This document shows positions 9,403 through 63,669 of a stretch of 64,000 nucleotides of DNA, in pieces (positions within the stretch are counted from its first letter, which is position 1; each line of letters opens with the position of its first letter). This DNA comes from a virus (lineage: Duplodnaviria > Heunggongvirae > Uroviricota > Caudoviricetes). Under the pieces are notes generated by a model, which made no database searches, had not been told where the DNA came from, and was given only the letters and a program-made list of their open reading frames with translations. The stretch is taken from positions 10,565-74,564 of IMG/VR virus record IMGVR_UViG_2737471844_000002, one strand, 5' to 3'. The position numbers were made by a program, and so were the translations under genes.

Positions 9403-9403
9403 C

Positions 9404-11044
9404 GTGGCAAAACGTAAACTTTCCATTAAAGAGTTTCAGAGAAGCCTGCAGGAGTACATCGCCAACCTCCGCCAGACCATCGAGGCTGAATGTCTGGGGT
9501 TCGATGTTAACCCGCAGGCCACACAGGCCCGCCGGGCGGCAGTCTGCGACCCGGTGACGGGCTACGATTATTTTGTCGAAAACTATTTTCCGCACTATGT
9601 CCGCAACCCGGCAAAAAGTGAGCTGCATAAATACCTGTTCAGCCGTCTGCCACAGGTTGTGGCAAGCCCGGACCCGGAGAACGACGCCATCGCCGCGCCC
9701 CGTGGTGAAGCAAAATCCACGCTGGTGACGCAGCTGTTTACCCTGTGGAACATTATCCGGGCCATTAAGCATTACCCGGTCATCATTATGGACAGTATCG
9801 ACCAGGCTTATCCGATGCTGGAAGCCATTAAGGCTGAACTGGAATTTAACCCCCGTTTAAAAAACGATTTCCCGGAAGTGTGCGGACAGGGCCGTGTCTG
9901 GCGTATGGGGACCATCGTCACGGCCAACAATATCAAGGTAACCGTTGCCGGTAGTGGTAAAAAACTGCGTGGTCTGCGCCACGGCCCGTACCGTCCTGAC
10001 CTGGTCATCCTCGACGACATCGAGAACGACGAGATGGTGCGTAACCCGGAGCAGCGCGACAAGCTGCATGACTGGCTCACCAGAACCGTGATGCCGCTGG
10101 GCGAGGCTGGCGGTAAAACCGATATTATTTATATCGGAACCATCCTGCATTACGACTCCGTGCTGTCGCGCACACTCAATAACCCGATGTGGAAAACGGC
10201 CCGCTTTAAGGCGGTCATTCAGTGGCCTGCCAACATGAAGCTGTGGGACGAGTGGGAAGAACTCATCCGCAACAAACAGCCAGAAGCGGCGGAGGCACTT
10301 TATCAGCAGAACGAAGCCGACATGCTCGCCGGGTCGGTGGTGTCATGGGCGGCGCGCCCACTGCTGGCGCTGATGAAAATCCGTGTCCGTGACGGTCACG
10401 ACACCTTTGATTCTGAATACCAGAACGACCCGGTCAGCGGTGAAGATGCGCTGTTTGCGGGCTGCATTAAGTTCTGGGTTAACCGTCTTGATGAATGGGT
10501 GTTTTATGGTGCTGTTGACCCCAGTCTCGGGAAGAAGAATAAAAACCGCGACCCGTCGGCCATTCTCGTGGGGGGCTTTAACCGTTTTACCGGCATTCTG
10601 GATGTGGTTGAAGCCGATATCCGCCGACGTCTGCCAAACAAACTTATCGAAGACGTGATTAAGTATCAGCGGGAATACCACTGTCTGTGCTGGTCGTTTG
10701 AGTCCGTCCAGTTTCAGGAGTTTCTGCGTACCGTGCTGGTTGAGCGTTCGGCGGCGCTGGGCGTGCCGGTTCCGGCGCTGCCGGTCATCCCGCTGGAGGA
10801 TAAGGCGCTGCGCATTGAGTCCCTTCAGCCGCATATGGCCAACGGCCTGATTCGTATCAGCCACACACATCAGACGCTGATTGACCAGCTGCGCCACTAC
10901 CCCAAAGCCGACCACGATGATGGCCCGGACTGTCTGCACATGCTGTGGACGCTGGCGGTATCGCGCAGCGCAAAATTTCAGATTCACACCCCACGCAGCA
11001 CCGGGCGTGACCGTGGCGGGCGTTTTGGTTCAGGAGGATGGTAA
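9404..11044 (+). CDS. terminase large subunit (Mu gp28-like)
   Basis: Large ORF; GTG 9404 chosen because it follows the MTase stop (the track ATG at 9347 overlaps the MTase); Mu-type terminase sequence character. Confidence 0.8.
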   Translation: MAKRKLSIKEFQRSLQEYIANLRQTIEAECLGFDVNPQATQARRAAVCDPVTGYDYFVENYFPHYVRNPAKSELHKYLFSRLPQVVASPDPENDAIAAPRGEAKSTLVTQLFTLWNIIRAIKHYPVIIMDSIDQAYPMLEAIKAELEFNPRLKNDFPEVCGQGRVWRMGTIVTANNIKVTVAGSGKKLRGLRHGPYRPDLVILDDIENDEMVRNPEQRDKLHDWLTRTVMPLGEAGGKTDIIYIGTILHYDSVLSRTLNNPMWKTARFKAVIQWPANMKLWDEWEELIRNKQPEAAEALYQQNEADMLAGSVVSWAARPLLALMKIRVRDGHDTFDSEYQNDPVSGEDALFAGCIKFWVNRLDEWVFYGAVDPSLGKKNKNRDPSAILVGGFNRFTGILDVVEADIRRRLPNKLIEDVIKYQREYHCLCWSFESVQFQEFLRTVLVERSAALGVPVPALPVIPLEDKALRIESLQPHMANGLIRISHTHQTLIDQLRHYPKADHDDGPDCLHMLWTLAVSRSAKFQIHTPRSTGRDRGGRFGSGGW

Positions 11045-18399: not shown

Positions 18400-18622
18400 G
18401 GCGGCTCCCGGGGTGAAGTTCCCGATGGAGGATAACGCCCGGAAATACATCACCACGGAAGCGGTGACCGTTGAGAACACCGCTTATTACCGGCGCGCCG
18501 TTCAGGACGGTGACCTGATTCTGGTGAAAGATGAGCCTGAAATCACCGTGACGGCTGAACAGGACGCCGTGCAGGTAAAAGCGAAGGCGAAGAGAGAGAA
18601 ACAGGTGGATTCCGATGAGTGA
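18380..18622 (+). CDS. Mu gp38-like protein (DUF2635-like)
   Basis: 80-aa ORF immediately before the sheath gene. Confidence 0.45.
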   Translation: MNKMKVKAAPGVKFPMEDNARKYITTEAVTVENTAYYRRAVQDGDLILVKDEPEITVTAEQDAVQVKAKAKREKQVDSDE

Positions 18623-20036
18623 AATTCAGTTTGACACCATTTCGGGCGGTATCCGTAAGCCCGGTGTGCATTTTGAGTTTAATACCCGGCTGGCCGTTAA
18701 CACGCTGCCGGGTAATGAACAGCGTGTTCTGGTGATTGGCCCGATGCTGTCAGGCGGCACCGCCACGCCCCTGAATGCCGTTTCCGTGTATTCCGAAGAC
18801 GAAGCGGATTTGTATTTCGGGGCCGGTTCGCTGGCCGCTGCAATGGCGCGCGCGGCCATTAATGCCAACAGCTATCTGCAACTGGATGTTATCGGTATTG
18901 CAGACAGTGGCGCAGGAAAGGCAGCAACCGGCGCGGTTACCGTCAACGGTACGGCAATCAGCAGCGGAACACTGTCGGTATGGGTTGCCGGTGAGCAGGT
19001 TTCGGTGGATGTGGAAACCGGTGATGGACCGTCGAAAATCATTCCGGCACTGGTGGAAGCAATGACGCATACGCCCTCGCTTCTGGTGACGGGGGAATAC
19101 AAATCGGAAGCCTCTCAGCTGACGGTGACCACCCGGACCAAAGGAGCCTGGGGGAATGACATCACCCTGTCAGCATCCACCACGGCAGGTGGTCTGACCG
19201 TGAGCGCCACGCCGATGGCGAACGGTGAAATGGACCCGGATATTCAGCCCGCACTGGATGCGGTCTTTGCCGCCGGTCACAACATTCTGATTTGTCCGTT
19301 CAGTACCACGCCAGCCCTTGCCGCCCTGAAGCAGCATCTGGAGAAAACCGGGAACGCGATGGAACAGCGCGGCGCGATTGGCTGTGTGGGCTGGACGGGC
19401 AGTCTCGGAAACGGGATCACCCTGGCAGCAGGTGTGAACAGCGGGCGCGTGTCCGTCCCCTGGTATCGCGGCTCCGTGAAGCTGCCAGCGGTGCTGGCCG
19501 CCATCTACGGCGCTGTGATGGCGGGCGAGGAAGACCCGGCGCGTCCGCTGAACTCGCTGGCACTGTCCGGACTGGATGTGGTCGCCATGTCACAGCGTGA
19601 AAGCCGTAACGAGCAGGAAAACGCCCTGCATAACGGCCTGACGCCGGTTGAGGTTGGCCCGGGTAACACGGTGCAGATTGTGCGTGCGGTCAGTACATAC
19701 ACGGTTAACGCACAGGGCGTGACTGACGTCTCGTTACTGGATATCACGTCCATCAGAACGCTGGACTACACCCGCAAGGCGTGTCGCGAGCGCATCAGCC
19801 TTCGCTTCCCGCGCGAAAAACTCAGCACCCGCACTATCGCCAAAGTGGAAAGCGAACTGTATGACGTGCTGATCAAGCTGGAGGAAGCGGAGATTCTGGA
19901 GAACGTGGAAGCGAACAAGGCAAAGCTGCGCGTTCAGCGAAACGGGAAAGATGCAAACCGTCTCGACTGCGTGGTTCCGGCGGATGTGGTTAACGGCCTG
20001 CATGTGTTTGCCGGCCGCATCGACATGATTTTGTAA
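18615..20036 (+). CDS. tail sheath protein (Mu L-like)
   Basis: 473-aa ORF; contractile-tail sheath sequence character. Confidence 0.8.
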   Translation: MSEIQFDTISGGIRKPGVHFEFNTRLAVNTLPGNEQRVLVIGPMLSGGTATPLNAVSVYSEDEADLYFGAGSLAAAMARAAINANSYLQLDVIGIADSGAGKAATGAVTVNGTAISSGTLSVWVAGEQVSVDVETGDGPSKIIPALVEAMTHTPSLLVTGEYKSEASQLTVTTRTKGAWGNDITLSASTTAGGLTVSATPMANGEMDPDIQPALDAVFAAGHNILICPFSTTPALAALKQHLEKTGNAMEQRGAIGCVGWTGSLGNGITLAAGVNSGRVSVPWYRGSVKLPAVLAAIYGAVMAGEEDPARPLNSLALSGLDVVAMSQRESRNEQENALHNGLTPVEVGPGNTVQIVRAVSTYTVNAQGVTDVSLLDITSIRTLDYTRKACRERISLRFPREKLSTRTIAKVESELYDVLIKLEEAEILENVEANKAKLRVQRNGKDANRLDCVVPADVVNGLHVFAGRIDMIL

Positions 20037-20048
20037 GGAGCGCGGTAA

Positions 20049-20423
20049 ATGTCCATTAAAGAATATGTCGGCTCGATTGTGCTGGAGGTGGACAGCCAGG
20101 AAATCGAGATCACCGACTTTGATGTTCAGATCAACACCGGGCGAAAGCTGGTCAAGACCATGAACAAAACCGGCAGGGCCAAAGGCTTTGCCCGTGGCAT
20201 TGCCACTTACGATATTTCTGTTTCGGCGGTTATCCCTGATACCAACGAGCCGGACTGGGAAAATCTGGAAGGTGTGAAAATCTCAATTTATCCGCTCAGT
20301 AACAGCGGTAAGCGCACCTCCTATCTGGACTGCTTTACTGTTGAAGTGGGTGAGAAATACACCGTCGACAGTGAAGCGAAAATTGATATCAAAATGGCTG
20401 CACTCAGGAAGGTGACGGGATGA
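20049..20423 (+). CDS. tail tube protein (Mu M-like)
   Basis: 124-aa ORF after the sheath gene. Confidence 0.7.
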   Translation: MSIKEYVGSIVLEVDSQEIEITDFDVQINTGRKLVKTMNKTGRAKGFARGIATYDISVSAVIPDTNEPDWENLEGVKISIYPLSNSGKRTSYLDCFTVEVGEKYTVDSEAKIDIKMAALRKVTG

Positions 20424-20803
20424 CTTTGATTAATACACAGACCGGCGAGCTGTCTGATGGCGTGGTGTTTAACGGCACCGTTCATAAAAACTTTGAGCTG
20501 CGTCTGCCGGTCATGCGTGATAACGGGCAGGCACTGGAAGAAACTGAAGAACGCTTTCAGACGGTGGATGGCTTCGCGGCGGATTATTACTACCGCTGTG
20601 CGGTGATGGCGGCAACGCTGGTCCGTCTGGGGGATATTCCGCAGGAAGAACTGACGGCGGAGCTGTTACACGACAACATGACGCCGGACGATTTTAATAT
20701 TCTGCTGGCATCACGCAACGTCCTGAAGGTAAAGCGGAACGGCGGGAATCCCGGCTCGCCGGACTCCGGCTCGCAGTCCTCATCCTCGGGCGCTACGGAA
20801 TAA
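20420..20803 (+). CDS. tail assembly chaperone (Mu gp41-like)
   Basis: 127-aa ORF between tube and tape measure; acidic, Ser-rich C-terminus. Confidence 0.5.
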   Translation: MTLINTQTGELSDGVVFNGTVHKNFELRLPVMRDNGQALEETEERFQTVDGFAADYYYRCAVMAATLVRLGDIPQEELTAELLHDNMTPDDFNILLASRNVLKVKRNGGNPGSPDSGSQSSSSGATE

Positions 20804-20817
20804 CCGAAGAGCAAATC

Positions 20818-20976
20818 ATGACCATGAGCCGTCCCGAGTTGGACGGCTGGCTTGCCGCCGTTGACAGGCTGAACGGCGGCGGCTCAGGAAGGAAGGACAC
20901 CTCACAGACCACCCGCCAGTCATTTAAATCCCTCAGAAAGAAACGCAGAAAAGGTAAGCAGAAAAATGGCCGGTAA
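20818..20976 (+). CDS. small basic ORF before tape measure (possible chaperone frameshift extension)
   Basis: 52-aa ORF; its frame is open back to 20698, overlapping the 3-prime end of the chaperone gene in the -1 frame; no canonical slippery heptamer found. Confidence 0.25.
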   Translation: MTMSRPELDGWLAAVDRLNGGGSGRKDTSQTTRQSFKSLRKKRRKGKQKNGR

Positions 20977-23248
20977 TTTCAAAGTTGGCATGACCCTGAC
21001 TGCGAAGGACGAAGCCTCGCAGGTTCTGGAAAAGGGACAAAAACAGGTTATCAAAGCCACCGAAGGTGTAACAAAGGCAACCCGGAAGGCAGGCGCAGAG
21101 CAGAAGCGTACCGAGCAGGAAAGCATTAACAGCACGAAAAAGGCCGCAAAAGAGATACAGCGTGCCGCCCGTGCCCGGGAAACGCTCGGTATTCGTGCAG
21201 AGCGTGAGATCCGGCGTGAAATTTATCTGACGGTTGCCAGTTATAACCGTCTGGCCCGCGCCGGTTTTGAATCTGCGCAGGAGCAGGAGCGCGCCATGCA
21301 GGCCACCCGGGAAAAAGCCCGGGCACTCAAGCGCGAACTGGATGGCGTTACTCAGGCTCAGATGAAGATGGCGAAAACGCCTGTTATCCCTGAACAGGGA
21401 CGTTTTGCCCGTGCGGCTGCATTTGGCGGGAATGCCGTGACAATAGGCGGAGGTATCGCGGCAGGTGCTGCCATTATGGCGCAGCCAGTCAAAAAGCAGA
21501 TGAGCTACGAACGCCAGCTGGCAATGATGGCCAATACCGCCTTCAGTGATGGCGGTCTGGAGGGGCGCAGGGCTGGTCTTGAGCAGATGAAAAGCAGCAT
21601 CCGTAACGCAGTGACCTATGGTGGCGGCACGAAAGAGGATGCGGCCGAAACGCTGGATGCCCTGCTGAAAGATGGCGGTATTTCATTTGAAACAGCCAGT
21701 AAGTGGCTGCCTGAACTGATGAAATACGCCACGGCTTCTGGTGCATCAGCGACAGACCTGGCTAATGTGATGCTTAAGGGCAAAAAGACGTTTGGATTCA
21801 GGGATGAAGATATTTCCACCGTTCTGAATATGGCAATTGCAGCGGGCAAAGAAGGCAGCTTTGAGCTGAGCGACATGGCCCGATGGTTATCTTCGCAGCT
21901 GGGGTCAGCGTCAGCTGCGGGGATGAGAGGCAAGGATGATTTTGTCAAGATTCTGGCACTGAATGAAGCTGCCGCCATCACGGCGGGAAGCAGTGATGAG
22001 GCCGGAAATAACGTGTTTAACCTGCTGGCTAAACTGACCAGCCACGATATTGAAACAGCGGCAAAGAGCATTGATTACAACGGTAAAGGAATTGATTTTT
22101 CCGGCACGCTGGTTCAGGCGCGTGAACATGGACTTGATCCGATAGATGCGCTGTCCAGCCTGATAGACAAAATCGTTGCCAGCGATAAACGCTTTCAGGA
22201 GTTGCAAAAGAAACTGGCCTCCGCCCGGGATAAGGGCGAGCAGACAGCTGTTTATGATTCGATGGCAAAACTCCTTGAAGGCTTTGGTGTCGGGAAACTG
22301 GTTGCAGACCAACAGGCGTTAAAAGCGTTGCTGGCTTACCGTAACAACCCGGAATACCGGAAAAAGGTTGAAGACGCGATTAATCAGCAGCGCACCCTGC
22401 CGGAAGGCCAGCGCGCGGGTGATGTGGATTTTAACTTCATATCCGGCCTCAATGACTTTAAAACCGAACAAGCTAAAAACACGTTTGAATTTTCACAAAT
22501 GGACAGCGTGAAAAAGCTGGCTGATGCGTCCGGTACTGTGGCCGATGCCATAAGCTGGGCGGGTGAAAAATTTCCGGGGCTGACCACAGCAGTGGTGGGT
22601 GCCACGACCGCCATTGAAGCGATGACCGCAGCGGCTCTGACATGGGCCGGGATCAAAATCCTGACCGGGGGTAAACCTGGTGGCAAGGCTGGCGAGGTTG
22701 TCGGTGATGTCATTGAAAACACGGTCAAAAAAGGCAAAGGATTTAAAATCCCCGGCATTGCCGGTAGCCTGCTTTCTTTCGGTGGCACCGTTACGGCACT
22801 GGCCACCGCAACCAGCCCGGAAGAAGACGCCGCCGTCGAAGGAAGCGAGGAGCGCTGGAAAAATATACGGGCTAAATATCCTCAGTGGCTGATTGATGCT
22901 GCCCGTGAAAAATATCAGCCGTGGTGGCAGTTTGGCGAAGGTTACTCAACAGAAAACGAGAAATGGATCCAGCAGTATCTTGACGAACTGAAAAAAACCG
23001 GGGTTATCGCCGGTGATTCTCTGCCGACACCAGAACAAGTCCGACAGCAAGCCGGAATGGCAGCGTCTGAAACGGCATCAAAGCAACCCAGACGCATCAC
23101 CCAGCCGGAATACCTCACGCACTGGGGACCACCTGCCAGCCCCATTAATTTCACCACACAACTGGTGCTCGATGGTCAGGTCATAGCGGAGGCAGTGAAC
23201 AAATACAACCTTCAGGACGGCAACAGAGGCACGGGAGGAACTTACTGA
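20966..23248 (+). CDS. tail tape measure protein
   Basis: 760-aa Ala/Gly-rich ORF in tape-measure position. Confidence 0.75.
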   Translation: MAGNFKVGMTLTAKDEASQVLEKGQKQVIKATEGVTKATRKAGAEQKRTEQESINSTKKAAKEIQRAARARETLGIRAEREIRREIYLTVASYNRLARAGFESAQEQERAMQATREKARALKRELDGVTQAQMKMAKTPVIPEQGRFARAAAFGGNAVTIGGGIAAGAAIMAQPVKKQMSYERQLAMMANTAFSDGGLEGRRAGLEQMKSSIRNAVTYGGGTKEDAAETLDALLKDGGISFETASKWLPELMKYATASGASATDLANVMLKGKKTFGFRDEDISTVLNMAIAAGKEGSFELSDMARWLSSQLGSASAAGMRGKDDFVKILALNEAAAITAGSSDEAGNNVFNLLAKLTSHDIETAAKSIDYNGKGIDFSGTLVQAREHGLDPIDALSSLIDKIVASDKRFQELQKKLASARDKGEQTAVYDSMAKLLEGFGVGKLVADQQALKALLAYRNNPEYRKKVEDAINQQRTLPEGQRAGDVDFNFISGLNDFKTEQAKNTFEFSQMDSVKKLADASGTVADAISWAGEKFPGLTTAVVGATTAIEAMTAAALTWAGIKILTGGKPGGKAGEVVGDVIENTVKKGKGFKIPGIAGSLLSFGGTVTALATATSPEEDAAVEGSEERWKNIRAKYPQWLIDAAREKYQPWWQFGEGYSTENEKWIQQYLDELKKTGVIAGDSLPTPEQVRQQAGMAASETASKQPRRITQPEYLTHWGPPASPINFTTQLVLDGQVIAEAVNKYNLQDGNRGTGGTY

Positions 23249-54187: not shown

Positions 54188-54251
54188 AGGCTTTCATTTC
54201 AAACCATTGTAGTCCAGTTTTTTGTATAGTACCCTGCTCATTACGGATGAC

Positions 54252-55460
54252 ATGTGTGATTTGGAATTTCAGGGTACCATTATGAATGTTATTTCATCGT
54301 TAAAACAGCTTAACAGACAGCGAAATATTAAAACAAAAAAGATAAAGACGAAGGCCAGACTGGCATTTCTAAAAATGCGATACAGAAGGAAAACATCATT
54401 ACAGCCGGATAGTTATAAAACAGTGTGCATTTTCATGCACATGCAAGCCATTGGTGACGGCATCGTTACCTCAGGGTTTATTAAACAACTTCAAAAATCC
54501 GGTATGGTGGTATATGTGATAGCACCTTCAAGAGTATCATTCCTCTTTACTGACATTGTTGGCGTGGATGCCTTTATATCTTACGAGAAAAATAAATTTA
54601 ACGAACTAAAAGCAAAGATAAAAAAACTGAATGTAGATCTTGTTGTTGACTTCTCAAATTTTGATAACACAGCGATAACCAGATTGCAAACACTACATTT
54701 ACTTAGACCTAAACACTCTATCTGTTTTAATCATCCTGCCGTAACTATTTTTGATACAAATATAATCGATAATCGTTCCATTCACACATCTGAAAGAATG
54801 AAAAAAGTTTTATCTTTACTAAAGATAAAAAATAATAATTATGCTGCAGCGCTTAATTTTGACAACAAAATATATGAACCAGCAAATATTGTTGCAAATG
54901 AATTCAGGAAAAAAAACAAAAAATTAGTTATATTTAACCCTTATGGCTCTCAGAATAGCAGAACCTTATCTGATGAACAGATAAAAAAAGTACTAGCTTA
55001 CCTTAATAACCTTAAGGGATATCACACAATAGTTTTTAATATGGGAAAACAGATTAATCACAATGGATTGGATAATGTGTCTCTATCTCCATTTTCTGAT
55101 GCCGGATGTTCATTTGCATTGGTTCGCCATGCTGATTTTGTTATAACTGTAGATACTGCCATTGTACATTTAGCCAGTGCATTAAACATTAGACAATACT
55201 GTATATATAATAACAGAATGCATGAAGGAAAATTCGAAAATAATATTGTGTGGGGGCCAAACAGCAAATTAGCGACTCAACTCACCACATCCGAACATCT
55301 AAGGTCTGAAGGGGGCGACGATATGCATAAATTCGACATAATGATCTTAATTAATGCTATCAAACAAGATTTGACAAACGATATACCGAATTACCACTCG
55401 GATTTAGGTTGTAAAAATAGTTCCAGAAACCCAGAATTAGAAAGTAGCAATTCTTTATAA
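54252..55460 (+). CDS. GT9-like glycosyltransferase (heptosyltransferase fold), moron
   Basis: Track ORF begins at TTG 54222; ATG 54252 or 54282 more likely; strongly AT-rich; C-terminal VDTAIVHLASALN and central FNPYGSQNSRTL motifs resemble WaaC/WaaF-type LPS heptosyltransferases. Confidence 0.55.
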   Translation: MCDLEFQGTIMNVISSLKQLNRQRNIKTKKIKTKARLAFLKMRYRRKTSLQPDSYKTVCIFMHMQAIGDGIVTSGFIKQLQKSGMVVYVIAPSRVSFLFTDIVGVDAFISYEKNKFNELKAKIKKLNVDLVVDFSNFDNTAITRLQTLHLLRPKHSICFNHPAVTIFDTNIIDNRSIHTSERMKKVLSLLKIKNNNYAAALNFDNKIYEPANIVANEFRKKNKKLVIFNPYGSQNSRTLSDEQIKKVLAYLNNLKGYHTIVFNMGKQINHNGLDNVSLSPFSDAGCSFALVRHADFVITVDTAIVHLASALNIRQYCIYNNRMHEGKFENNIVWGPNSKLATQLTTSEHLRSEGGDDMHKFDIMILINAIKQDLTNDIPNYHSDLGCKNSSRNPELESSNSL

Positions 55461-55556: not shown

Positions 55557-56051
55557 TCAGAACAGTCCTTTAACTGAACTGGCCGCGCTGTTAAGAGATG
55601 ATGTCACCTTATCTTTGAAGCCGGACAGCATATCGCTGAACGATGAGGATTGCAGGCGCTCCCGCAAATCCTCATCACAGCGTTCAAGGGTCAGTGAAAA
55701 TTCTATCTTTTTCGCCTTACCGTAGCGATCAAACTCGGAACGGGTCGTATTCGTTCCGGTCAGGACATACATGCCGTAAATCAGCCCGACACCATCAATC
55801 AAAGGCCAGGGTCGTCCTGTATACGCCTGCGTGGTCAGCAGCGACAGCGACACTTCGCCACCTGTAATTTCAGGATAAAGCACACCAGAAAGCACGATGC
55901 GATCATCACCTGCACCGATATACTGCCAGCTTGCTGAACGGTTAACGCGTTCATTTTTCACATGCCGCCAGCTTTTGTTTTGCTGTAACTGCTGATGCGG
56001 CAGCGTGCGCAGCTCAAAAACAAACATGCCGTAGATCATCATCATGGCCAT
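55557..56051 (-). CDS. U: tail protein gpU
   Basis: 164-aa ORF on the minus strand; P2 gpU-like size. Confidence 0.75.
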   Translation of the reverse strand: MAMMMIYGMFVFELRTLPHQQLQQNKSWRHVKNERVNRSASWQYIGAGDDRIVLSGVLYPEITGGEVSLSLLTTQAYTGRPWPLIDGVGLIYGMYVLTGTNTTRSEFDRYGKAKKIEFSLTLERCDEDLRERLQSSSFSDMLSGFKDKVTSSLNSAASSVKGLF

Positions 56052-56057
56052 GACTCC

Positions 56058-58901
56058 TCAATCTTTATCGTAAAAACTTCCACGCCCGGCACGGGCGCGC
56101 CGTTCCATTTCTGCCCTGACCATTTCACCGACCAGTTTCGCCAGTTCGCGGGGATTCTGCGTAACAACGTTATGCAGATGAACATGAATTTCACCGCCAA
56201 ATCCGGAGGCAACAGGCTCCCGGTTACGGGAAGTTGCAGGAACTGATGCCACTGGCGATCGTATGGCCTCTGCCACCGGGCGGGAGCTGGCCGCAACAAC
56301 AGGGACCAGCGCCGGAGGCAGCGGAGCCGGAACCACAGGTGTGATATTAATTGCGGGGGCAGGCTTACTGACCTGCGCAATCTTCCGCTCCTGCCACTCC
56401 CCACGAACAGCAAGTGCTCGGGGCAGGTTCTTAAAGACAATATCGCCGGGGCCAATGCGTTTTTTCGTCTCATCAACCAGCTTACCTGTGTTATCAGCAA
56501 TTTTGCTGAGTCTGCGTAGCGTCCCGGTATTGCTGTCTGTGAGCGGTTTGTTGTCTTTGGGTTTATCACCTCCGGTGCCATTGCCATTTTCCACAGGCTT
56601 CGGCGGATTGATTTTCGCCAGGTCCCCCTGAAGCAAGGCAACCTTGTCCTGAAGAATGGCCGCACGCTGTGCGTCTTCGATTTTCTTGCGCGCCCTTTCC
56701 GCTTCATCCGGAAGGACGCCAAGTTTTTCAAGTATCCACGCCAGCGTATCCAGTAGCATTTTTGCAGGTGTCAGAACAAGTTGTAACGCACCGCCAAGAA
56801 CGTTACCGAATATCTCGCCAGCACTGGTACATTTATCCAGCGTTTCCTTGCTGGACTCCATCGGTGACAGCAGCGATTTAAACCAGTTAAACACCTGGCT
56901 GATCCCGCTTCCGATTGCGTCAAAAACAGGACCAAACCGTTCAAAGGTTTCGCGCAACGGGGTCAGCCTTTCCATAATCCCGCTGAACACCCCGGCAAAA
57001 AATGCCCTGATGGGATCCCAGTATTTCCAGATAAGAACGGCAGCTCCGGCAAGCGCAGCCACGATAAGACCAACCGGACTGAACAACGCCCCGATAGCGC
57101 CTCCCAGTAAAGAAACGGAACCCGTCACCATTCCCCATAGTGCTGGCAGGACCCTGACAGCATTCATTGATCCGGTCAGGAGAGAAAAACCAAGACGCAG
57201 TTTTGCCAGCGGGCCAGCAAGCACACCAATAGCCAGCGACAACGAGCCAACCGTTGCAGTCATTGCCAGCAGCGCACCGCCTGCTATCAGTAGCTGGCGC
57301 GTCAGTGCCGGATGGGCCTGCGCCAGCGCCGTCACCCTTGATACCACCCGCGTGAGCCACTGCGTGACAGAACGCAGCGGACCGTCAATCAGATCTGCAA
57401 TGCGGATGCGCAACCCTTCCCATGCACTGCCGAGTGATTTCAGATCGCCGTCAAGGTTGTTGGCCATAACCTTTGCTGTGCGTTCAGCCTCACCGCGCGC
57501 GCCTTCAAGTTCTTTTCTCAGTTTGGGTAAGGAACCGTCACCCGCTGCATCAACGAGCGCCATAAACGATGTGAAAGCCTCTTCTCCGGCAATGTCCTTA
57601 AAGAACGATACCCGGTCAACTTCCCCGTATTTGCGGGTGGCTTTATAAAGGTCGGCCAGCACATCTTCCATCGGGCGCATTTTGCCGTTCGCGTCAGAGA
57701 CTGCCACACCGAGCTCTTTCAGCGCCTCTGCTGCTGCCTTTGGCGGTGATGCCAGACGAGCCAGGCTGGCACGCATTGCCGTCCCGGCATCACTCCCTCT
57801 GATACCCATATTCGCCAGCACGCCCGCCATCGCTGCGGCCTGCTCCAGCGATATTCCCAGCTTACCCGCCGCCGGACCTGCATATTTCATGGTTTCGCCC
57901 AGTGCGCGAAGGTCAGTGTTGGTACGGGTAAACGCTGCGGTGAGCGTGTCGCCAACCCGGTCCATCTGGTCAGCAGAAAGGCCGAACTGCGTCAGGATAT
58001 TTGAGCCAATATCCGCCGTCTCGCCGAGATCCATGCCGCCAGCCGTTGCCATGCTCAGCACGCCCGGAAGCGCAGCCTGAATGGCCTGCGGTGTGAAGCC
58101 CGCCATTGCAAGAAATGCCTGCCCACTGGCGGCATCGCCTGCGGTGAACTGCGTTTCAGAGCCAAGTTTTAACGTCTGCTCACGCAGCGCCTTAAACTGC
58201 GGGCTGTTTTTGTCGATTCGCGTCAGAGCCTGAACGCGGGACATCTCTTTCCCGAACCCAATCGCGGGCTGCAAAAAACGCCCGGCAGCATAGCCGCCCG
58301 CCGCTGCCGCACCTGTTGCCAGTGCACCACCTGTTTTCAGTTTTCCCGCGGTTTCCTGCGCGCGCGAATACCGCTCACGCGCCCGCGTTACACGCGCAAG
58401 CGCCTGCCGTTCGCGTTCAAGCTGGTTGTTGTACTGTTCGGTGCGTCTGATGGCCTGCTGGATGGTGTTATCGCTGCCTGTCAGGGAAATGCCGTGGCGT
58501 TTCAGCTCTCCGCCAAGCTCCCGCATTTTCTGAATTTCCCGTGTGCGCGATTCATTCAGGCGTTCAAGCCGGGTGCTTAACTGCTGCATCAGCTTTTGTT
58601 GTTTTTCGCTGAGCACTGTACCCGTGCGTTGTAACTGATTAAGGGCGTTAAGCTGGCGTCGTGCTTTCACGATACCCGCATCCGCTTTACTGACAGCGTC
58701 GCGGGCGCGCTCAAATGATCGCGCCTGACGCTCGAGATTTTTGATCGCCCCCTGCGTTCGCTGGATGGAGTCACCAAACTGCCCCATCAGGCGGCGTGCG
58801 TTTTCGGCAGGTCGGGTCAGCCTGTCAACGGCGCTGAAAGCGACCCGGATATCAAGAGTCTTCATTGTCTGCATTCCCGCTGCGAAGTGCCGCCCGCTCA
58901 C
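56058..58901 (-). CDS. T: tail tape measure protein gpT
   Basis: 947-aa ORF on the minus strand; Ala-rich, coiled-coil N-terminus. Confidence 0.8.
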   Translation of the reverse strand: MSGRHFAAGMQTMKTLDIRVAFSAVDRLTRPAENARRLMGQFGDSIQRTQGAIKNLERQARSFERARDAVSKADAGIVKARRQLNALNQLQRTGTVLSEKQQKLMQQLSTRLERLNESRTREIQKMRELGGELKRHGISLTGSDNTIQQAIRRTEQYNNQLERERQALARVTRARERYSRAQETAGKLKTGGALATGAAAAGGYAAGRFLQPAIGFGKEMSRVQALTRIDKNSPQFKALREQTLKLGSETQFTAGDAASGQAFLAMAGFTPQAIQAALPGVLSMATAGGMDLGETADIGSNILTQFGLSADQMDRVGDTLTAAFTRTNTDLRALGETMKYAGPAAGKLGISLEQAAAMAGVLANMGIRGSDAGTAMRASLARLASPPKAAAEALKELGVAVSDANGKMRPMEDVLADLYKATRKYGEVDRVSFFKDIAGEEAFTSFMALVDAAGDGSLPKLRKELEGARGEAERTAKVMANNLDGDLKSLGSAWEGLRIRIADLIDGPLRSVTQWLTRVVSRVTALAQAHPALTRQLLIAGGALLAMTATVGSLSLAIGVLAGPLAKLRLGFSLLTGSMNAVRVLPALWGMVTGSVSLLGGAIGALFSPVGLIVAALAGAAVLIWKYWDPIRAFFAGVFSGIMERLTPLRETFERFGPVFDAIGSGISQVFNWFKSLLSPMESSKETLDKCTSAGEIFGNVLGGALQLVLTPAKMLLDTLAWILEKLGVLPDEAERARKKIEDAQRAAILQDKVALLQGDLAKINPPKPVENGNGTGGDKPKDNKPLTDSNTGTLRRLSKIADNTGKLVDETKKRIGPGDIVFKNLPRALAVRGEWQERKIAQVSKPAPAINITPVVPAPLPPALVPVVAASSRPVAEAIRSPVASVPATSRNREPVASGFGGEIHVHLHNVVTQNPRELAKLVGEMVRAEMERRARAGRGSFYDKD

Positions 58902-59088
58902 GCCAGCTAACCACTTCGCCGGGCGTCATCATGAAGATTTCGGCGGGCGACCAGTTAAAAATAACGGCAATATCTGCCACAAAGTCTTCTATGTGCTCAA
59001 AGCACACAACCGTGATCAGGCTTCCGTCGCCTGTTCGTTCTTCCCGCCAGAGTCCGCACCGCTCAAAAAATTTACGGCAACCACACAT
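58852..59088 (-). CDS. E-prime frame of tail chaperone (expressed as E+E-prime by -1 frameshift)
   Basis: ORF in the -1 frame relative to E, overlapping the E 3-prime end and the T start; a slippery heptamer lies in the overlap. Confidence 0.55.
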   Translation of the reverse strand: MCGCRKFFERCGLWREERTGDGSLITVVCFEHIEDFVADIAVIFNWSPAEIFMMTPGEVVSWRERAALRSGNADNEDS

Positions 59089-59381
59089 AACTGAATAAAG
59101 TCACTGGATGCCATTTTTTTGATCGTCACTTCATCCAGTCGCGGTGATGTCACGCGTGACAGCAGAGTAAACATGGATTCCGCTTTCAGATTCAGCACAT
59201 CAGACAGCGACAAATCTCGCAGAGATCCAGCCTGCTCAATAGCCCCGGTAATCTCCACATACGTGATTTTTTCGCCGCCTCGCTCAATTGGTTGGGTAAG
59301 TTTTACACCACGTTCACTGGTTTCTTTCACAGTGTCAGCAACTACCGTGTTTTCGGTATCGATGTTTTTCGTCTCTTTCAT
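59016..59381 (-). CDS. E: tail assembly chaperone gpE
   Basis: 121-aa ORF between FII and T on the minus strand. Confidence 0.6.
   Translation of the reverse strand: MKETKNIDTENTVVADTVKETSERGVKLTQPIERGGEKITYVEITGAIEQAGSLRDLSLSDVLNLKAESMFTLLSRVTSPRLDEVTIKKMASSDFIQLCVVAVNFLSGADSGGKNEQATEA
59034..59040 (-). other. programmed -1 frameshift slippery heptamer T_TTT_TTG
   Basis: On the coding (minus) strand the E frame reads aaT TTT TTG agc (N F L S); shifting -1 gives TTT TTT GAG (F F E), which matches the KFFE start of the E-prime frame. Confidence 0.55.
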
Positions 59382-59435: not shown

Positions 59436-59948
59436 TCAGCCAAGCCCGAGCGCGGAACGGATGCGATCGGGCACAATGTCCTTGCCGTCCTTCCGGTAAA
59501 TGAAGTTCAGCAGGTCAATCTCCCACAACGGGCGATCGTTAACACTCAGCTTGTAGTAGGTGTTTTTAATGGCGTAAGTGTGTGATGTGGCTTCGCCCTG
59601 TTTGGCTTCCCCCATATCAATTTCCGTCACACGTCCGCGCATTTCGACTTCATACAGGTCGCTTTCTGCATCGGTGTAGTATTCACCCGCAAAACGCAGC
59701 AGCGTGCCGTCAATCGTGCCGCCATACTTAAGGAACAGCTCACGAACTGCGCCCCCCATGACAAAGCTCGCATCAAGCGCGGAGTCGTCCAGACCGAGAT
59801 CAATACTTACCGCACCCATCATGCCACCACCCCGGTAGCTGTCGGTTTTGCGCGTCAGCTTAGGCAGAGTGACGGACGTCACCTTACCCACTTCGTTTTC
59901 ACCATCCACAAACAGCGTAAAAAAGCGAAGATGTTTTGGTACAGCCAT
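59436..59948 (-). CDS. FII: tail tube protein gpFII
   Basis: 170-aa ORF; P2 FII-like. Confidence 0.8.
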   Translation of the reverse strand: MAVPKHLRFFTLFVDGENEVGKVTSVTLPKLTRKTDSYRGGGMMGAVSIDLGLDDSALDASFVMGGAVRELFLKYGGTIDGTLLRFAGEYYTDAESDLYEVEMRGRVTEIDMGEAKQGEATSHTYAIKNTYYKLSVNDRPLWEIDLLNFIYRKDGKDIVPDRIRSALGLG

Positions 59949-61132
59949 CAGGCACCTCCCAGCACCGCAAATGCGGGACCAAAGAATTCATCAGTAAACG
60001 ACTGGTAAAGCTCCATGTCTTCCAGCGGGGGAACAGGCGTATATTTGTAGCGAATACGCACGCGCCCCTGACGTAAATTCGTGGTGCCGTTATCCACCAC
60101 GTCATACCAGCACGACGCCCCAATCAGTTTCCCGGCAGTAACCAGTGAATCCAGTTTTGCCCTGATGGCACTGATAACATCTTTCACGTTCGCAGGCGTC
60201 AGTGGACTGTCGATGGTTTCAAACTGCGCTTCCGCAATTGAATCAGCCAGCACCTGTGCGGTTCGGGTATACACCTCAAAGATGTAGGCGTTCGTTTCCG
60301 GTGTGCGGTTGCCCCAGAAGCGGAACCCGTTGCGACGAATAATGGTCGTGATTTCTTTGTTGTTGAGGCTGTTGGCATCACTGTCTTCGGCCTGCAACGA
60401 CCAGAACACATGCCTGGACATCCCCAGCACATTTTTAACCGGAACGTTGGACAGCGATTTGTGCCAGCCCTGCTCATGGTCAATGTACGCACGAAGGCCG
60501 CACGCATAGGCAGGCGCGGGGAACGTTTCGTTTTTGCCACTTTTCGGGTTGTAGGCGATGAAGTCCGGCCATAAGAGCATCACCTCACGTTCGTTGAATT
60601 TCTGGCGGTAGGTAATCGCCTCAGCCATCGTGTTACAGCCGTGACATGAGGCATACACAAACGCGCGCAGTTTACCCGCAATCACGCACAGGGATTTTGT
60701 TACCGCCTCCGTGTCCAGCTCCGGCGCGGCCAGAATACGCGGACGGTATCCGATGCTTTCATCCTGCTCTGCAACAAGCAGCGCATACATCCCCGTATAG
60801 CTGCCGTCAGATTCAGAACCACCGATAACCAGTTGATCCTGCGTTTTTCCGTCTTCTTCTTTGTGTTCAGCCACGCGAACGACGATCACCTTTGTGCTCA
60901 CCTGGTCTGCGATGGCCTTAAGCGCACGATAAAGCGTCCCCGTTGTTCCGCATTTTCCCAGCACGTCATTGACGCGGGTCAGCAGTGTGGGCTTGTTCAG
61001 CGGGAACAGCTCCGCATCCGCATCATCCGCCGTTGCCACGATACCGATAACACTGGAATCAACATCATTAATCGCTGTTACCAGGTCGGTACTTTCCGTA
61101 ACACGGGCACCATGAAAACGAGTTTCACTCAT
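59948..61132 (-). CDS. FI: tail sheath protein gpFI
   Basis: 394-aa ORF; strong resemblance to P2 FI (KLRAF.Y.S..GC.T..E...YRQ.F..RE.M..WPDF, GWHK.LSNV, LIRR.GFRFWGNRT). Confidence 0.85.
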   Translation of the reverse strand: MSETRFHGARVTESTDLVTAINDVDSSVIGIVATADDADAELFPLNKPTLLTRVNDVLGKCGTTGTLYRALKAIADQVSTKVIVVRVAEHKEEDGKTQDQLVIGGSESDGSYTGMYALLVAEQDESIGYRPRILAAPELDTEAVTKSLCVIAGKLRAFVYASCHGCNTMAEAITYRQKFNEREVMLLWPDFIAYNPKSGKNETFPAPAYACGLRAYIDHEQGWHKSLSNVPVKNVLGMSRHVFWSLQAEDSDANSLNNKEITTIIRRNGFRFWGNRTPETNAYIFEVYTRTAQVLADSIAEAQFETIDSPLTPANVKDVISAIRAKLDSLVTAGKLIGASCWYDVVDNGTTNLRQGRVRIRYKYTPVPPLEDMELYQSFTDEFFGPAFAVLGGA

Positions 61133-61289
61133 AGCTTCAGCCCCTTGTATCCGTTAAATGATTCGGCAACAATCATCACCCACCACGCGCGTAATCTCAC
61201 CCCTGCGCCATTCTCCCGCCACGGCGACAACAAAAAGCAGTAACCCCCTCCGCACGCACATGCGACCATGCCGCACAGGGAGGGAACAG

Positions 61290-62399
61290 ATGACCGACAC
61301 CACCATGCAATTGCTCAGTCAGGGCACAGACCCCGTGAAAATGCCGGATTTTGATATTCTCGCGGAGGGTAAAACGCTGTCAGGCGTGGCAGAGCGCCTG
61401 ATGAGCCTGTCACTGACCGACAACCGGGGATTTGAGGCGGACCAGCTCACCATCACGCTGGATGATGCGGATGGTCAGTTGCAGCTACCGCCACGGGGCG
61501 CGCGCCTGACGGTTCTCATTGGCTGGAAGGGAGAACCGCTGACAGAAAAAGGCACTTACATTGTTGATGAAATCGCTCACGAAGGACCGCCGGACAGGCT
61601 GACTGTTTCAGCCAGAAGCGCAGATTTTCGGGATGAATTTAACGTTAAACGTGAGGTGTCCTGGCATGATGTGACCGTTGAGAGTGTGGTATCCGCCATC
61701 GCTCATCGGTATGGTCTGAAACCGCAAATCAGCGAAATGCTGATGGATATCGAAATCGACCACGCCGACCAGACCGAAGAAAGCGACATGTCCTTTCTTA
61801 CGCGCATGGCGGAAATGCTGGGCGCAATCACCACCGTAAAAAGCGGCAATCTGTTATTCATCATGCCAGGTGGTGGCGTGAACGCACAGGGCCAGCCGTT
61901 GCCCTCGTTCGCCATTACACGCAGCAGCGGCGATCGCCATCAGTTCCGTATTGCTGACCGCGAGGCGTATACGGGGGTACGCGCCTACTGGCTTGATCTT
62001 AATTACGGGAAAAAGAAAAAAGTCAGCGTGAAACGCCGCAAACCGCCAAAACCCAAAAAGGAGAAAAGCAGCAGCCGTGAAGGTGATTATATGGAAGGCG
62101 CGGAAGGCAATGTGTTTGTGTTACGCAAGACTTATCAGAACGAGCAGGCAGCAAGACGCGCAGCGGCGGCAAAGTGGCAGCAACTACAACGCGGAGCCGC
62201 ATCATTCTCCATCACGCTGGCACGTGGACGAGCAGAACTCTACCCCGAAATGCATGGCACGGTAACAGGATTTAAAAGCGAGATTGATAATCAGGACTGG
62301 ATTATTGCAAAAGCCGAGCACACCATTGATAACAGTGGCTTTACCACGCAGCTTGAGCTTGAAGCCAAAATCCCGGAATGGATAGCAGAAACAGAGTAA
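61290..62399 (+). CDS. D: tail protein gpD
   Basis: ATG 61290 preceded by cagggaggg SD (track start 61158 is probably too far upstream); P2 gpD-like; on the opposite strand to FI-U. Confidence 0.75.
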   Translation: MTDTTMQLLSQGTDPVKMPDFDILAEGKTLSGVAERLMSLSLTDNRGFEADQLTITLDDADGQLQLPPRGARLTVLIGWKGEPLTEKGTYIVDEIAHEGPPDRLTVSARSADFRDEFNVKREVSWHDVTVESVVSAIAHRYGLKPQISEMLMDIEIDHADQTEESDMSFLTRMAEMLGAITTVKSGNLLFIMPGGGVNAQGQPLPSFAITRSSGDRHQFRIADREAYTGVRAYWLDLNYGKKKKVSVKRRKPPKPKKEKSSSREGDYMEGAEGNVFVLRKTYQNEQAARRAAAAKWQQLQRGAASFSITLARGRAELYPEMHGTVTGFKSEIDNQDWIIAKAEHTIDNSGFTTQLELEAKIPEWIAETE

Positions 62400-62593: not shown

Positions 62594-63259
62594 ATGAATA
62601 TGCAAATTTTTATCGCACCAGCAGCCACAGTTGCTGCAGTCTGCCTTGCTGCATATTTTGCTTTACGAAATGAACGTAAAAAGAAAGCACTTGAGATTAG
62701 AACAACTCAACTAGATCGAATATCAGAGCTAGTAAACCGAGCATCTACCAATTTGATGCAATATACAGGTACTCTTGCCTCTATACTGGAAGCGCACGCC
62801 AAAGATAATTATCTACCGAACAAAAAATTTGACATTAATGTAATTAGCAAATGGAAAGATTGCCTCGATGAGAGTGAGGTCTGGGCGATTGATAGACAGC
62901 AACTAAGAACATGTCAGCACAGTCTGGAGTTTCATCGTGAAAAAGAATGGGCTGAATGGAAAAAAATAATTCCACCATTACTTGATAAAATTGACCAATT
63001 TTTTCTCATATCTAAGCCAGGGCAACCTGTTACGTTTATAAATGGCCAAAACAAAACAGCTGATGAACTACTTGTTTTCTCAAGATATTTGAGAAAACAA
63101 ACAGCAGAAATTGAATCAGTACGTCAGCTGTTACTTTCTCAAATGAGAGAGGAATTCATCGAGTTAACTAGCTTTGAACCTGTCACAATGTTTAGCTTAT
63201 TTAAATCAATAAAGAAAAATGTCATGCAATTTTTCTGTATCAGTGCTCTTAAAAATTGA
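62594..63259 (+). CDS. membrane-anchored protein of unknown function (moron between D and ogr)
   Basis: 221-aa ORF; single N-terminal TM helix (IFIAPAATVAAVCLAAYFAL); strongly AT-rich; own terminator downstream. Confidence 0.5.
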   Translation: MNMQIFIAPAATVAAVCLAAYFALRNERKKKALEIRTTQLDRISELVNRASTNLMQYTGTLASILEAHAKDNYLPNKKFDINVISKWKDCLDESEVWAIDRQQLRTCQHSLEFHREKEWAEWKKIIPPLLDKIDQFFLISKPGQPVTFINGQNKTADELLVFSRYLRKQTAEIESVRQLLLSQMREEFIELTSFEPVTMFSLFKSIKKNVMQFFCISALKN

Positions 63260-63408: not shown

Positions 63409-63669
63409 ATGTTCCGTTGTCCGCTTTGTGGCGCATCTGCCCGTATCCGCACCAGTCGTCCGGAAAATGATTCAAACACCGTGCGGCAAAAGTATTACCA
63501 GTGTAACAACCTGGAATGCGGCGTATGCTTCTCAACACTGGAAGCTTTCCATAAATTCACATCGAAACACGCCTCCGGCATCCACTCTTCAGAAGATATC
63601 CCGTGGCATGAGCTGCCAGCTTCACACAGGGGAAACAATCAGATGAGCTTGCCTTTACCTCAGAATTAA
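63409..63669 (+). CDS. ogr: Ogr/Delta-family zinc-finger late transcription activator
   Basis: 86-aa ORF starting MFRCPLCG...RTSR...YYQCNNLECG; matches the Ogr C-x2-C ... C-x4-C zinc finger. Confidence 0.75.
   Translation: MFRCPLCGASARIRTSRPENDSNTVRQKYYQCNNLECGVCFSTLEAFHKFTSKHASGIHSSEDIPWHELPASHRGNNQMSLPLPQN

What the first reader, a model, noticed from the sequence alone, without database searches (positions are those of the whole stretch)
59034..59040. Slippery heptamer T_TTT_TTG for the E / E+E-prime tail chaperone frameshift
On the minus strand the E reading frame passes through aaT TTT TTG, and the overlapping ORF (58852-59088) is in the -1 frame and begins productive coding at exactly this point (FFE...). 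This matches the conserved programmed -1 frameshift that produces the tail assembly chaperone fusion in P2-like phages. It also supports the tail operon being intact despite its inverted orientation.
Basis: partly seen in the sequence, partly recalled or inferred. Interest (0 to 1): 0.4.

Follow-up and report, generated by a model that had tools for sequence, protein, structure and literature searches.

The report
P2-type tail chaperone frameshift site
This is the expected ribosome-slipping site that lets a P2-like (P88-type) prophage of E. coli make two tail-assembly proteins from one gene; it is real and well supported, but ordinary, and lies 30 bases from the reported coordinates.

Summary
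The heptamer TTTTTTG exists on the minus strand, but at 59070..59064, not 59034-59040. It sits in gene E (59381..59016) as AAT TTT TTG. The -1 frame is open from there for 72 codons to 58852 and encodes the Pfam "Phage P2 GpE" (E') domain. The genes lie between tail tube and tape measure in a prophage 97-99% identical to phage P88 (Xuanwuvirus). In 31 loci from about 20 lineages, E' is always -1 to E and a canonical X_XXY_YYZ heptamer always covers the same invariant Phe codon; this includes P2, where TTTTTTG is the published site. Against 87%-identical relatives, purifying selection switches from the 0 frame to the -1 frame exactly at the heptamer. The predicted 176-aa fusion aligns colinearly with P2 E+E' (E = 6e-26). 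There is no downstream RNA structure, as in P2. Two corrections apply. First, the window has two overlapping heptamers (A_AAT_TTT_TTG), and only the upstream one is kept in the nearest diverged relatives, so the exact slip codon is open. Second, the "inverted" operon is the native P88 layout. Public records annotate E' as a separate 51-aa gene. Verdict: new member of a known kind, low interest.

The parts
59016..59381 (-). Gene E (121 aa), 0-frame tail assembly chaperone-like protein
   Evidence: ORF and translation. phrog_103 'tail protein' 4e-35. PF10109 Phage_TAC_7 below threshold but end to end, residues 26-106. An AAAGGAA Shine-Dalgarno-like sequence precedes the ATG.
59064..59073 (-). 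Slippery run A_AAT_TTT_TTG, made of two overlapping canonical -1 heptamers
   Evidence: Identical in P88, in 79 of 80 IMG/VR relatives (the other differs only upstream of the run) and in a Salmonella prophage.
59064..59070 (-).
   Evidence: P2 site TTTTTTG as cited in PMC3091744.
59067..59073 (-). Heptamer A_AAT_TTT (P site Asn104, A site Phe105), the alternative slip site conserved across the genus
   Evidence: It is the only heptamer left in phages 520873 and Shae_phiSM, which read AAATTTTATG. The R_RR.U_UU.Y class is frameshift-prone in E. coli (PMC4066793).
58852..59070 (-). E' coding region in the -1 frame (72 codons from the heptamer to TGA 58854..58852)
   Evidence: Translation. PF06528 Phage_P2_GpE 1.4e-12 and phrog_1756 3e-40, matched from residue 1. 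The -1 frame is under purifying selection from the heptamer onward.
58852..59381 (-). Predicted E+E' fusion product (176 aa: E residues 1-106 plus 70 residues from the -1 frame)
   Evidence: Reconstruction. Colinear BLASTP alignment to P2 E+E', 31% identity, E = 6e-26.
56058..58865 (-). Tape measure gene T (935 aa); its ATG overlaps the end of E' by 14 nt
   Evidence: PF10145 4e-57 and phrog_28. Coordinates as annotated in RefSeq and P88.
59436..59948 (-). Tail tube gene FII, immediately upstream of E
   Evidence: PF04985 7.5e-47.
59948..61132 (-). Tail sheath gene FI
   Evidence: PF04984, PF17482 and phrog_23 1.7e-125.
55557..56051 (-). Tail gene U, the last gene of the operon
   Evidence: PF06995 4.9e-38.

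Best explanation
Gene E of a P88-like (Xuanwuvirus, Peduoviridae) prophage contains a programmed -1 ribosomal frameshift site in the run A_AAT_TTT_TTG (59073..59064, minus strand). Most ribosomes read through and terminate 17 codons later, giving the 121-aa protein E. A minority slip back one base while tRNAs occupy AAT-TTT or TTT-TTG, re-pair on AAA-TTT or TTT-TTT, and continue in the -1 frame for 70 more codons. This gives a 176-aa E+E' protein that shares E's first 105-106 residues and ends in the conserved GpE' domain, just inside the start of the tape-measure gene. By analogy with lambda G/GT and P2 E/E+E', both proteins act as tail assembly chaperones around the tape measure, and the slip rate sets their ratio. 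Shown here: the sequence geometry, the homology, the conservation of the site and the frame switch in selection. Inferred: that slippage actually occurs, its rate, which of the two heptamers is used, and the chaperone role.
For: (1) Geometry. The heptamer is in the 0 frame of E. The -1 frame is open only from 59100, runs 72 codons past the site, and 17 0-frame codons remain. (2) Gene identity and position. E and E' lie between the tube and tape-measure genes. E' matches PF06528 Phage_P2_GpE at 1.4e-12, and E matches phrog_103 at 4e-35. (3) In 18 phage loci from about 12 Peduoviridae genera and 13 bacterial genome loci, E' is always -1 relative to E, and every overlap holds an in-frame X_XXY_YYZ heptamer. 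Apart from the Mannheimia phage, it covers the same Phe codon, 10 codons after a conserved Asp; F105 is invariant in the 14-phage alignment. The heptamer is TTTTTTG in P2, Wphi and 186, where the frameshift is annotated or published. (4) Statistics: heptamer density is 8 times higher in the overlap than in the rest of E, and the joint chance probability is about 1e-17. (5) Selection, measured against 87%-identical relatives. In the 10 codons before the site, the 0 frame has 4 synonymous and 1 nonsynonymous changes and the -1 frame has 0 and 6. From the site to the E stop, the 0 frame has 1 and 7 and the -1 frame has 6 and 3. (6) There is no Shine-Dalgarno-like sequence before the ATG at 59088 or before the database-annotated GTG at 59007. 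(7) The reconstructed fusion aligns colinearly with P2 E+E' (E = 6e-26), with the slip residues FL aligned. The same reconstruction rule reproduces P2's published 91-aa and 142-aa products. (8) Relatives with only T3-T4 runs (CCCTTTC, AAATTTTA) still keep a canonical heptamer, which argues for ribosomal rather than transcriptional slippage.
Against: There is no direct evidence of a fusion protein for this phage group. No downstream stimulatory structure was found (z = 0.10), and no obvious upstream Shine-Dalgarno-like stimulator, so efficiency may be low; the same is reported for P2. The Pfam E-family model scores below threshold on this E (16.2 against 25 bits). Public annotations treat E' as an independent 51-aa gene. 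T_TTT_TTG is not conserved in the nearest diverged relatives, and UUG is a poor A-site slipper in E. coli assays.
Confidence: 0.9

Rival explanations
1. The frameshift is real, but the ribosome slips mainly on the upstream heptamer A_AAT_TTT (59073..59067; Asn in the P site, Phe in the A site) rather than on the reader's T_TTT_TTG. The junction would then be ...VNF-FERC... instead of ...VNFL-ERC....
For: The nearest diverged relatives (Escherichia phage 520873, Citrobacter phage Shae_phiSM) read A AAT TTT ATG. They have lost T_TTT_TTG and kept A_AAT_TTT, with an intact and conserved E'. Klebsiella relatives use C_CCT_TTC, which also places the Phe codon in the A site. In E. coli assays, UUY is a much better A-site slipper than UUG, and R_RR.U_UU.Y motifs are named as frameshift-prone (PMC4066793).
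Against: T_TTT_TTG is the published P2 site and the commonest form in the family. In the window both heptamers are present, so both may contribute. Sequence data alone cannot separate them.
Confidence: 0.4
2. There is no frameshift. E' is an independent small gene translated from its own start, either the GTG at 59007 as annotated in GenBank and RefSeq (51 aa) or the ATG at 59088 (78 aa).
For: Potential start codons exist in the -1 frame. P88 and RefSeq E. coli records annotate a separate 156-nt CDS.
Against: Neither start has a Shine-Dalgarno-like sequence. The -1 frame shows purifying selection from the heptamer onward, upstream of GTG 59007, but not between ATG 59088 and the heptamer. The heptamer is conserved at a homologous codon across about 20 lineages. 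Many relatives lack any such start at an equivalent place. P2, Wphi and Milagro are annotated with a joined E+E' CDS.
Confidence: 0.04
3. The frame change is made by RNA polymerase slippage on the T6 run (insertion of one U in a fraction of transcripts) rather than by the ribosome.
For: The window has a homopolymeric T6 run. Transcriptional slippage is known in some phage and IS genes (reviewed in PMC5009743).
Against: T6 is short for efficient slippage. Relatives keep the E/E' geometry with only T4 (AAATTTTATG) or T3 (CCCTTTC) runs, and with GGGAAAG in the Mannheimia phage, while always keeping a frame-specific X_XXY_YYZ pattern. None of the 80 near-identical IMG/VR loci varies in run length.
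Confidence: 0.03
4. The heptamer is a chance occurrence without function.
For: TTTTTTG occurs 38 times in the window. The chance of an in-frame heptamer in this overlap alone is about 10%. Another in-frame T_TTT_TTG sits in gene T with no apparent role.
Against: Positional conservation across all lineages tested, 8-fold enrichment in the overlap, and the frame switch in selection.
Confidence: 0.02

Closest known systems
Bacteriophage P2 E / E+E' programmed -1 frameshift (Christie et al. 2002, J Bacteriol 184:6522, as cited in PMC3091744)
   Same: Same gene position (between tube FII and tape measure T). Same heptamer, T_TTT_TTG, over the homologous Phe-Leu codons. Same -1 direction and homologous E and E' parts (31% identity over the fusion, E = 6e-26). 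No downstream hairpin. The end of E' overlaps the start of T.
   Different: E is longer here (121 against 91 aa, with an N-terminal extension). The fusion is 176 against 142 aa, with a 10-residue insertion just after the slip site. The overlap is 85 nt against 37 nt. An extra overlapping heptamer, A_AAT_TTT, is present. The operon is divergent from D-ogr rather than colinear with it.
Phage lambda G / GT tail assembly chaperones (Levin 1993; Xu, Hendrix and Duda 2004, 2013, 2014, as summarised in PMC5009743)
   Same: Two proteins share an N-terminus and are made by a low-level -1 slip near the end of the gene that precedes the tape-measure gene. The presumed role is to coat the tape measure and recruit the tube subunit.
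   Different: No detectable sequence homology was tested or found here. Lambda uses G_GGA_AAG and is a siphovirus. The chaperone roles of the P2-type proteins are inferred rather than shown here.
Phage 186 orf51/orf52 (gene H), Wphi E+E', Burkholderia phages KS5, KS14, KL3 and Milagro
   Same: They have the same TTTTTTG heptamer at the homologous position and are annotated or predicted to frameshift.
   Different: They belong to other Peduoviridae genera, and their E proteins are 24-35% identical to the window's.
Escherichia phage P88 and other Xuanwuvirus records (KP063541, NC_049344, OR565851)
   Same: P88 is 98.6% identical across this region with an identical slippery run. The operon layout is the same.
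   Different: Their annotations list E' as a separate 'tail fiber protein' or 'tail protein' CDS, or omit it, with no frameshift. The P88 paper does not mention one.

Membership tests
P2-type E/E+E' programmed -1 frameshift (conserved tail assembly chaperone frameshift of dsDNA tailed phages) | Two overlapping ORFs located between the major tail (tube) gene and the tape-measure gene | tested here: met
   Tube 59948..59436, E 59381..59016, E' to 58852, T 58865..56058, all on the minus strand.
P2-type E/E+E' programmed -1 frameshift (conserved tail assembly chaperone frameshift of dsDNA tailed phages) | The downstream ORF is in the -1 frame relative to the upstream one, and a slip extends the product rather than truncating it | tested here: met
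   E' codons start at 59070 and E codons at 59069. After the site there are 72 -1 codons against 17 0-frame codons.
P2-type E/E+E' programmed -1 frameshift (conserved tail assembly chaperone frameshift of dsDNA tailed phages) | A canonical X_XXY_YYZ slippery heptamer in the 0 frame inside the overlap | tested here: met
   Two are present: A_AAT_TTT (59073..59067) and T_TTT_TTG (59070..59064).
P2-type E/E+E' programmed -1 frameshift (conserved tail assembly chaperone frameshift of dsDNA tailed phages) | The slippery site is conserved at the homologous position in diverged relatives | tested here: met
   All 31 loci have a heptamer in the overlap. F105 is invariant in the 14-phage alignment. The joint chance probability is about 1e-17.
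P2-type E/E+E' programmed -1 frameshift (conserved tail assembly chaperone frameshift of dsDNA tailed phages) | The downstream ORF lacks its own translation initiation signals, and its coding begins at the slip site | tested here: met
   There is no Shine-Dalgarno-like sequence before ATG 59088 or GTG 59007. The synonymous/nonsynonymous pattern switches frame at the heptamer. This evidence is indirect, because initiation was not measured.
P2-type E/E+E' programmed -1 frameshift (conserved tail assembly chaperone frameshift of dsDNA tailed phages) | The fusion protein is actually produced, at a fixed low ratio to the short product | not testable with these tools
   This needs proteomics, a western blot or a reporter assay.
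Pfam PF06528 Phage_P2_GpE (E' part) | Score above the gathering threshold (23 bits) | tested here: met
   47.3 bits, E = 1.4e-12, profile positions 1-36 of 37.
Pfam PF10109 Phage_TAC_7 (tail assembly chaperone E/41/14; E part) | Score above the gathering threshold (25 bits) | tested here: not met
   16.2 bits, E = 0.011. The match is nevertheless end to end (residues 26-106 on profile positions 2-78 of 79). P2 E scores 47 bits. Homology to P2 E is supported instead by BLASTP of the fusion (6e-26) and by phrog_103 (4e-35).
Xuanwuvirus (P88-like Peduoviridae) prophage | Near-identity and colinearity with phage P88 over the tail operon, including the divergent D-ogr arrangement | tested here: met
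   98.6% identity over 801 nt. 97.4% identity, gap-free, over 5576 nt. The gene order is the same.

The most novel reading that the evidence does not exclude
In P88-like phages the functional slip site is the genus-conserved A_AAT_TTT heptamer, with Phe-tRNA slipping in the A site, rather than the P2-type T_TTT_TTG. The window's lineage would then carry a tandem double heptamer (A_AAT_TTT_TTG) that offers two successive chances to slip and so a higher E+E':E ratio than its relatives. This would be a natural example of tuning a chaperone ratio by stacking slippery sites without any RNA stimulator.
Probability: 0.3. Interest if true: 0.25.

Novelty: new member of a known kind. Interest (0 to 1): 0.12.

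Why it matters
Mainly for annotation. In phage P88, in related phage records and in the RefSeq E. coli annotation examined, E' is called as a free-standing 51-aa "GpE family" or even "tail fiber" gene, and the 176-aa E+E' product is missing. About 1,550 of the 5,426 complete E. coli genomes searched carry this prophage type. Recognising the site gives the correct proteome for a very common E. coli prophage. It also supplies a natural pair of heptamer variants (AAATTTTTTG against AAATTTTATG) that could be used to study stimulator-free -1 frameshifting in E. coli. It does not change current understanding of the mechanism.

Tried and rejected
- **Downstream stimulatory structure.** Folding the 89 nt after the heptamer gave an MFE of -24.4 kcal/mol against a shuffle mean of -24.7 (z = 0.10). 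The only solid hairpins start at least 30 nt away, too far to act as a stimulator.
- **Upstream Shine-Dalgarno-like stimulator.** Nothing convincing lies 6-17 nt upstream in the window.
- **Local inversion of the tail operon.** Rejected, because P88 and the E. coli prophages examined share the layout.
- **Primary P2 paper.** PMC135442 is not held in the library, so the P2 facts are taken from PMC3091744 and from GenBank annotations.
- **IMG/VR scan with E.** It returned only 98-99% identical loci, which confirm stability of the run but are uninformative for conservation.
- **Search with the 14-sequence alignment.** It was too diverse for pattern search. A 6-sequence alignment worked.
- **Solved structures.** No homologue was found by sequence.
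- **NCBIfam.** No model hits E or the fusion.
- **Not run, because they would not change the verdict.** The large protein-database searches and structure prediction.

Full report
**Observation**

The reported coordinates (59034-59040) do not hold the motif. On the minus strand those bases read GAACGAA. TTTTTTG lies at 59070..59064, 30 nt upstream in the direction of transcription. The rest of the description is accurate:

- ORF E runs from the ATG at 59381 to the stop at 59018..59016 and reads ...GTA AAT TTT TTG AGC... (V N104 F105 L106 S).
- The ORF listed at 58852..59088 is in the -1 frame. Translated from the first T of the heptamer, it gives FFERCGLWREERTGDGSLITVVCFEHIEDFVADIAVIFNWSPAEIFMMTPGEVVSWRERAALRSGNADNEDS*.

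The motif alone means little:

- It occurs 38 times in the window, against 17.9 expected.
- An in-frame X_XXY_YYZ heptamer would arise by chance in this 26-codon overlap about 10% of the time.
- Four other in-frame heptamers occur in the same operon, including a second T_TTT_TTG in the tape-measure gene at 58278..58272. Each leads only to a 5-51-codon dead-end tail.

**What the genes are**

| Gene | Coordinates (strand) | Evidence |
|---|---|---|
| Sheath FI | 61132..59948 (-) | PF04984, PF17482 |
| Tube FII | 59948..59436 (-) | PF04985, 7.5e-47 |
| E | 59381..59016 (-) | phrog_103, 4e-35 |
| E' (the -1 ORF) | 59070..58852 (-) | PF06528 "Phage P2 GpE", 1.4e-12; phrog_1756, 3e-40, matched from its first residue |
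| Tape measure T | 58865..56058 (-) | PF10145, 4e-57 |
| U | 56051..55557 (-) | PF06995 |
| D | 61158..62399 (+) | PF05954 |
| ogr | 63409..63669 (+) | PF04606 |

The region is 98.6% identical to Escherichia phage P88 (Xuanwuvirus, Peduoviridae). It occurs as a prophage in 1552 of 5426 complete E. coli genomes.

In P88 the sheath-to-U operon is also divergent from D, so the "inverted orientation" is the native layout of this genus and not a rearrangement. The 5576-nt operon aligns without gaps to P88 at 97.4% identity, and all reading frames are intact. P88 is an inducible phage (abstract of PMC5285337).

**Evidence that the site is a programmed -1 frameshift site**

1. *Geometry.* The -1 frame is open only from 59100. 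A slip at the run adds 70-72 codons that end in the GpE' domain, whereas the 0 frame stops after 17 more codons.
2. *Conservation.* I examined 18 phage loci from about 12 Peduoviridae genera and 13 prophage loci from bacterial species genomes.
   - E' is in the -1 frame relative to E in every one.
   - Every overlap holds a canonical in-frame heptamer.
   - In all but the Mannheimia phage, it covers the same Phe codon, 10 codons after a conserved Asp. F105 is one of 11 invariant columns in a 14-phage E alignment whose members are only 24-42% identical to the window's E outside its own genus.
   - The heptamer is TTTTTTG in P2, Wphi, 186, SEN5, KSP20, RSA1, Milagro and others. Variants are TTTTTTC, TTTTTTT, TTTTTTA, CCCTTTC, AAATTTT and GGGAAAG.
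3. *Statistics.* Heptamers occur at 0.031 per codon in the overlaps against 0.0041 in the rest of E (random expectation 0.0039). The product of per-lineage chance probabilities over 19 lineages is 1.5e-17. The lineages are related, so this overstates independence. Retention through this much divergence is still the point.
4. *Selection.* The window was compared with the 87%-identical phages 520873 and Shae_phiSM.

   | Region | 0 frame (syn / nonsyn) | -1 frame (syn / nonsyn) |
   |---|---|---|
   | 10 codons before the site | 4 / 1 | 0 / 6 |
   | Site to the E stop | 1 / 7 | 6 / 3 |

   So -1 coding begins at the run. It does not begin at the upstream ATG (59088) or at the GTG (59007) that GenBank and RefSeq use as the E' start. 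Neither of those codons has a Shine-Dalgarno-like sequence, unlike the ATG of E.
5. *Homology of the product.*
   - Joining E residues 1-106 to the -1 frame gives a 176-aa protein. It aligns colinearly with P2 E+E' over both halves (31% identity, E = 6e-26), with the slip residues FL aligned.
   - The same joining rule applied to the P2 locus reproduces the published 91-aa and 142-aa sizes.
   - Pfam PF10109 (tail assembly chaperone E/41/14) matches E end to end and stops at L106, as it stops at the slip Leu of P2. It scores only 16.2 bits against a cut-off of 25, so formal Pfam membership of the E part is not met.

**Mechanism**

The published P2 case is a -1 shift at TTTTTTG that yields E and E+E' without a downstream hairpin (PMC3091744, citing Christie 2002 and Xu 2004). 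Here too the 89 nt downstream fold no better than shuffled sequence (z = 0.10). Relatives keep a frame-specific heptamer even where the T run is only 3-4 long, which argues for ribosomal rather than transcriptional slippage.

By analogy with lambda G/GT (PMC5009743), the shared E part would bind the tape measure and the E' part would recruit tube subunits, with the slip rate fixing the ratio. That functional step is inferred and was not tested here.

The window actually carries two overlapping heptamers, A_AAT_TTT and T_TTT_TTG, in the run A AAT TTT TTG. Three results point to the upstream one:

- The closest diverged relatives read A AAT TTT ATG. They have lost the P2-type heptamer and kept the upstream one, with an intact and conserved E'.
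- Klebsiella relatives use C_CCT_TTC, which also puts the Phe codon in the A site.
- In systematic E. coli assays, A-site UUY slips far better than UUG, and R_RR.U_UU.Y motifs are singled out as frameshift-prone (PMC4066793).

The products differ only at residue 106 (Leu or Phe).

**Comparison, novelty and verdict**

This is the P2 E/E+E' system in a different Peduoviridae genus. The differences from P2 are a longer E, a 10-residue insertion after the junction, a longer overlap and the extra heptamer.

The frameshift is not annotated in P88, in related phage records or in RefSeq E. coli genomes, which list a separate 51-aa "GpE family" or "tail fiber" CDS. The P88 paper does not mention it. 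It is nevertheless exactly what the conserved tail-chaperone frameshift rule predicts.

I rate it a new member of a known kind, with low interest. My confidence that this is a functional -1 programmed frameshift site is about 0.9. Which heptamer is used remains open.

Noticed in passing
window 18615..23248 (+): A second, unrelated myovirus-type prophage occupies roughly the first 30 kb of the window. Its tail assembly chaperone gene (20420..20803, phrog_508, 1e-40) is followed by a 52-aa ORF (20818..20976, phrog_3114). That ORF's frame is open from 20698 and is -1 relative to the chaperone, just before the tape-measure gene (20966..23248). No canonical in-frame X_XXY_YYZ heptamer exists in that overlap, so any frameshift there would use a non-canonical site.
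   Followed up: partly
window 54222..55460 (+): A low-GC (33%) glycosyltransferase family 9-like gene lies between the tail-fibre assembly gene and gene U, where phage P88 carries a DNA invertase. It has weak heptosyltransferase hits and matches phrog_36326 at 4e-241. It is probably a prophage cargo gene (moron) that could modify LPS.
   Followed up: partly
window 62594..63259 (+): A 221-aa, low-GC (36%) ORF lies between D and ogr. It has no Pfam, PHROG or NCBIfam match and is annotated 'hypothetical protein' in RefSeq E. coli genomes. It is another likely moron of unknown function.
   Followed up: partly
window 58272..58278 (-), inside tape-measure gene T: A second in-frame T_TTT_TTG (codons F197-L198 of T) is preceded by a GC-rich hairpin (58298..58284), which the scan flagged as terminator-like. 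A -1 slip here would end after 28 codons. It looks fortuitous, but it shows that the motif alone is not diagnostic.
   Followed up: partly
window 59114..59120 (-), inside E: An A7 run (ATC AAA AAA ATG, residues I-K-K-M) lies 44 nt upstream of the slippery run. It is upstream of the point where the -1 frame opens (59100) in the window. In the Vagococcus-labelled contig L100 the run is A8, the -1 frame is open across it, and it forms an in-frame A_AAA_AAA heptamer.
   Followed up: no
L002 (E. coli MS6193, NZ_CP047405.1) 9147..10000: In some E. coli genomes that carry this prophage, gene D is annotated as a shortened 801-nt CDS plus a pseudogene fragment. Other copies carry IS1, IS3 or ISEcp1/CTX-M-15 insertions in this region. 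Many copies are therefore decaying, whereas the window's D ORF is continuous.
   Followed up: no
L100 (NZ_JBQPOM010000071.1): A contig labelled Vagococcus sp. carries a 94%-identical copy of this enterobacterial prophage's E gene. Assembly contamination or mislabelling is likely.
   Followed up: no
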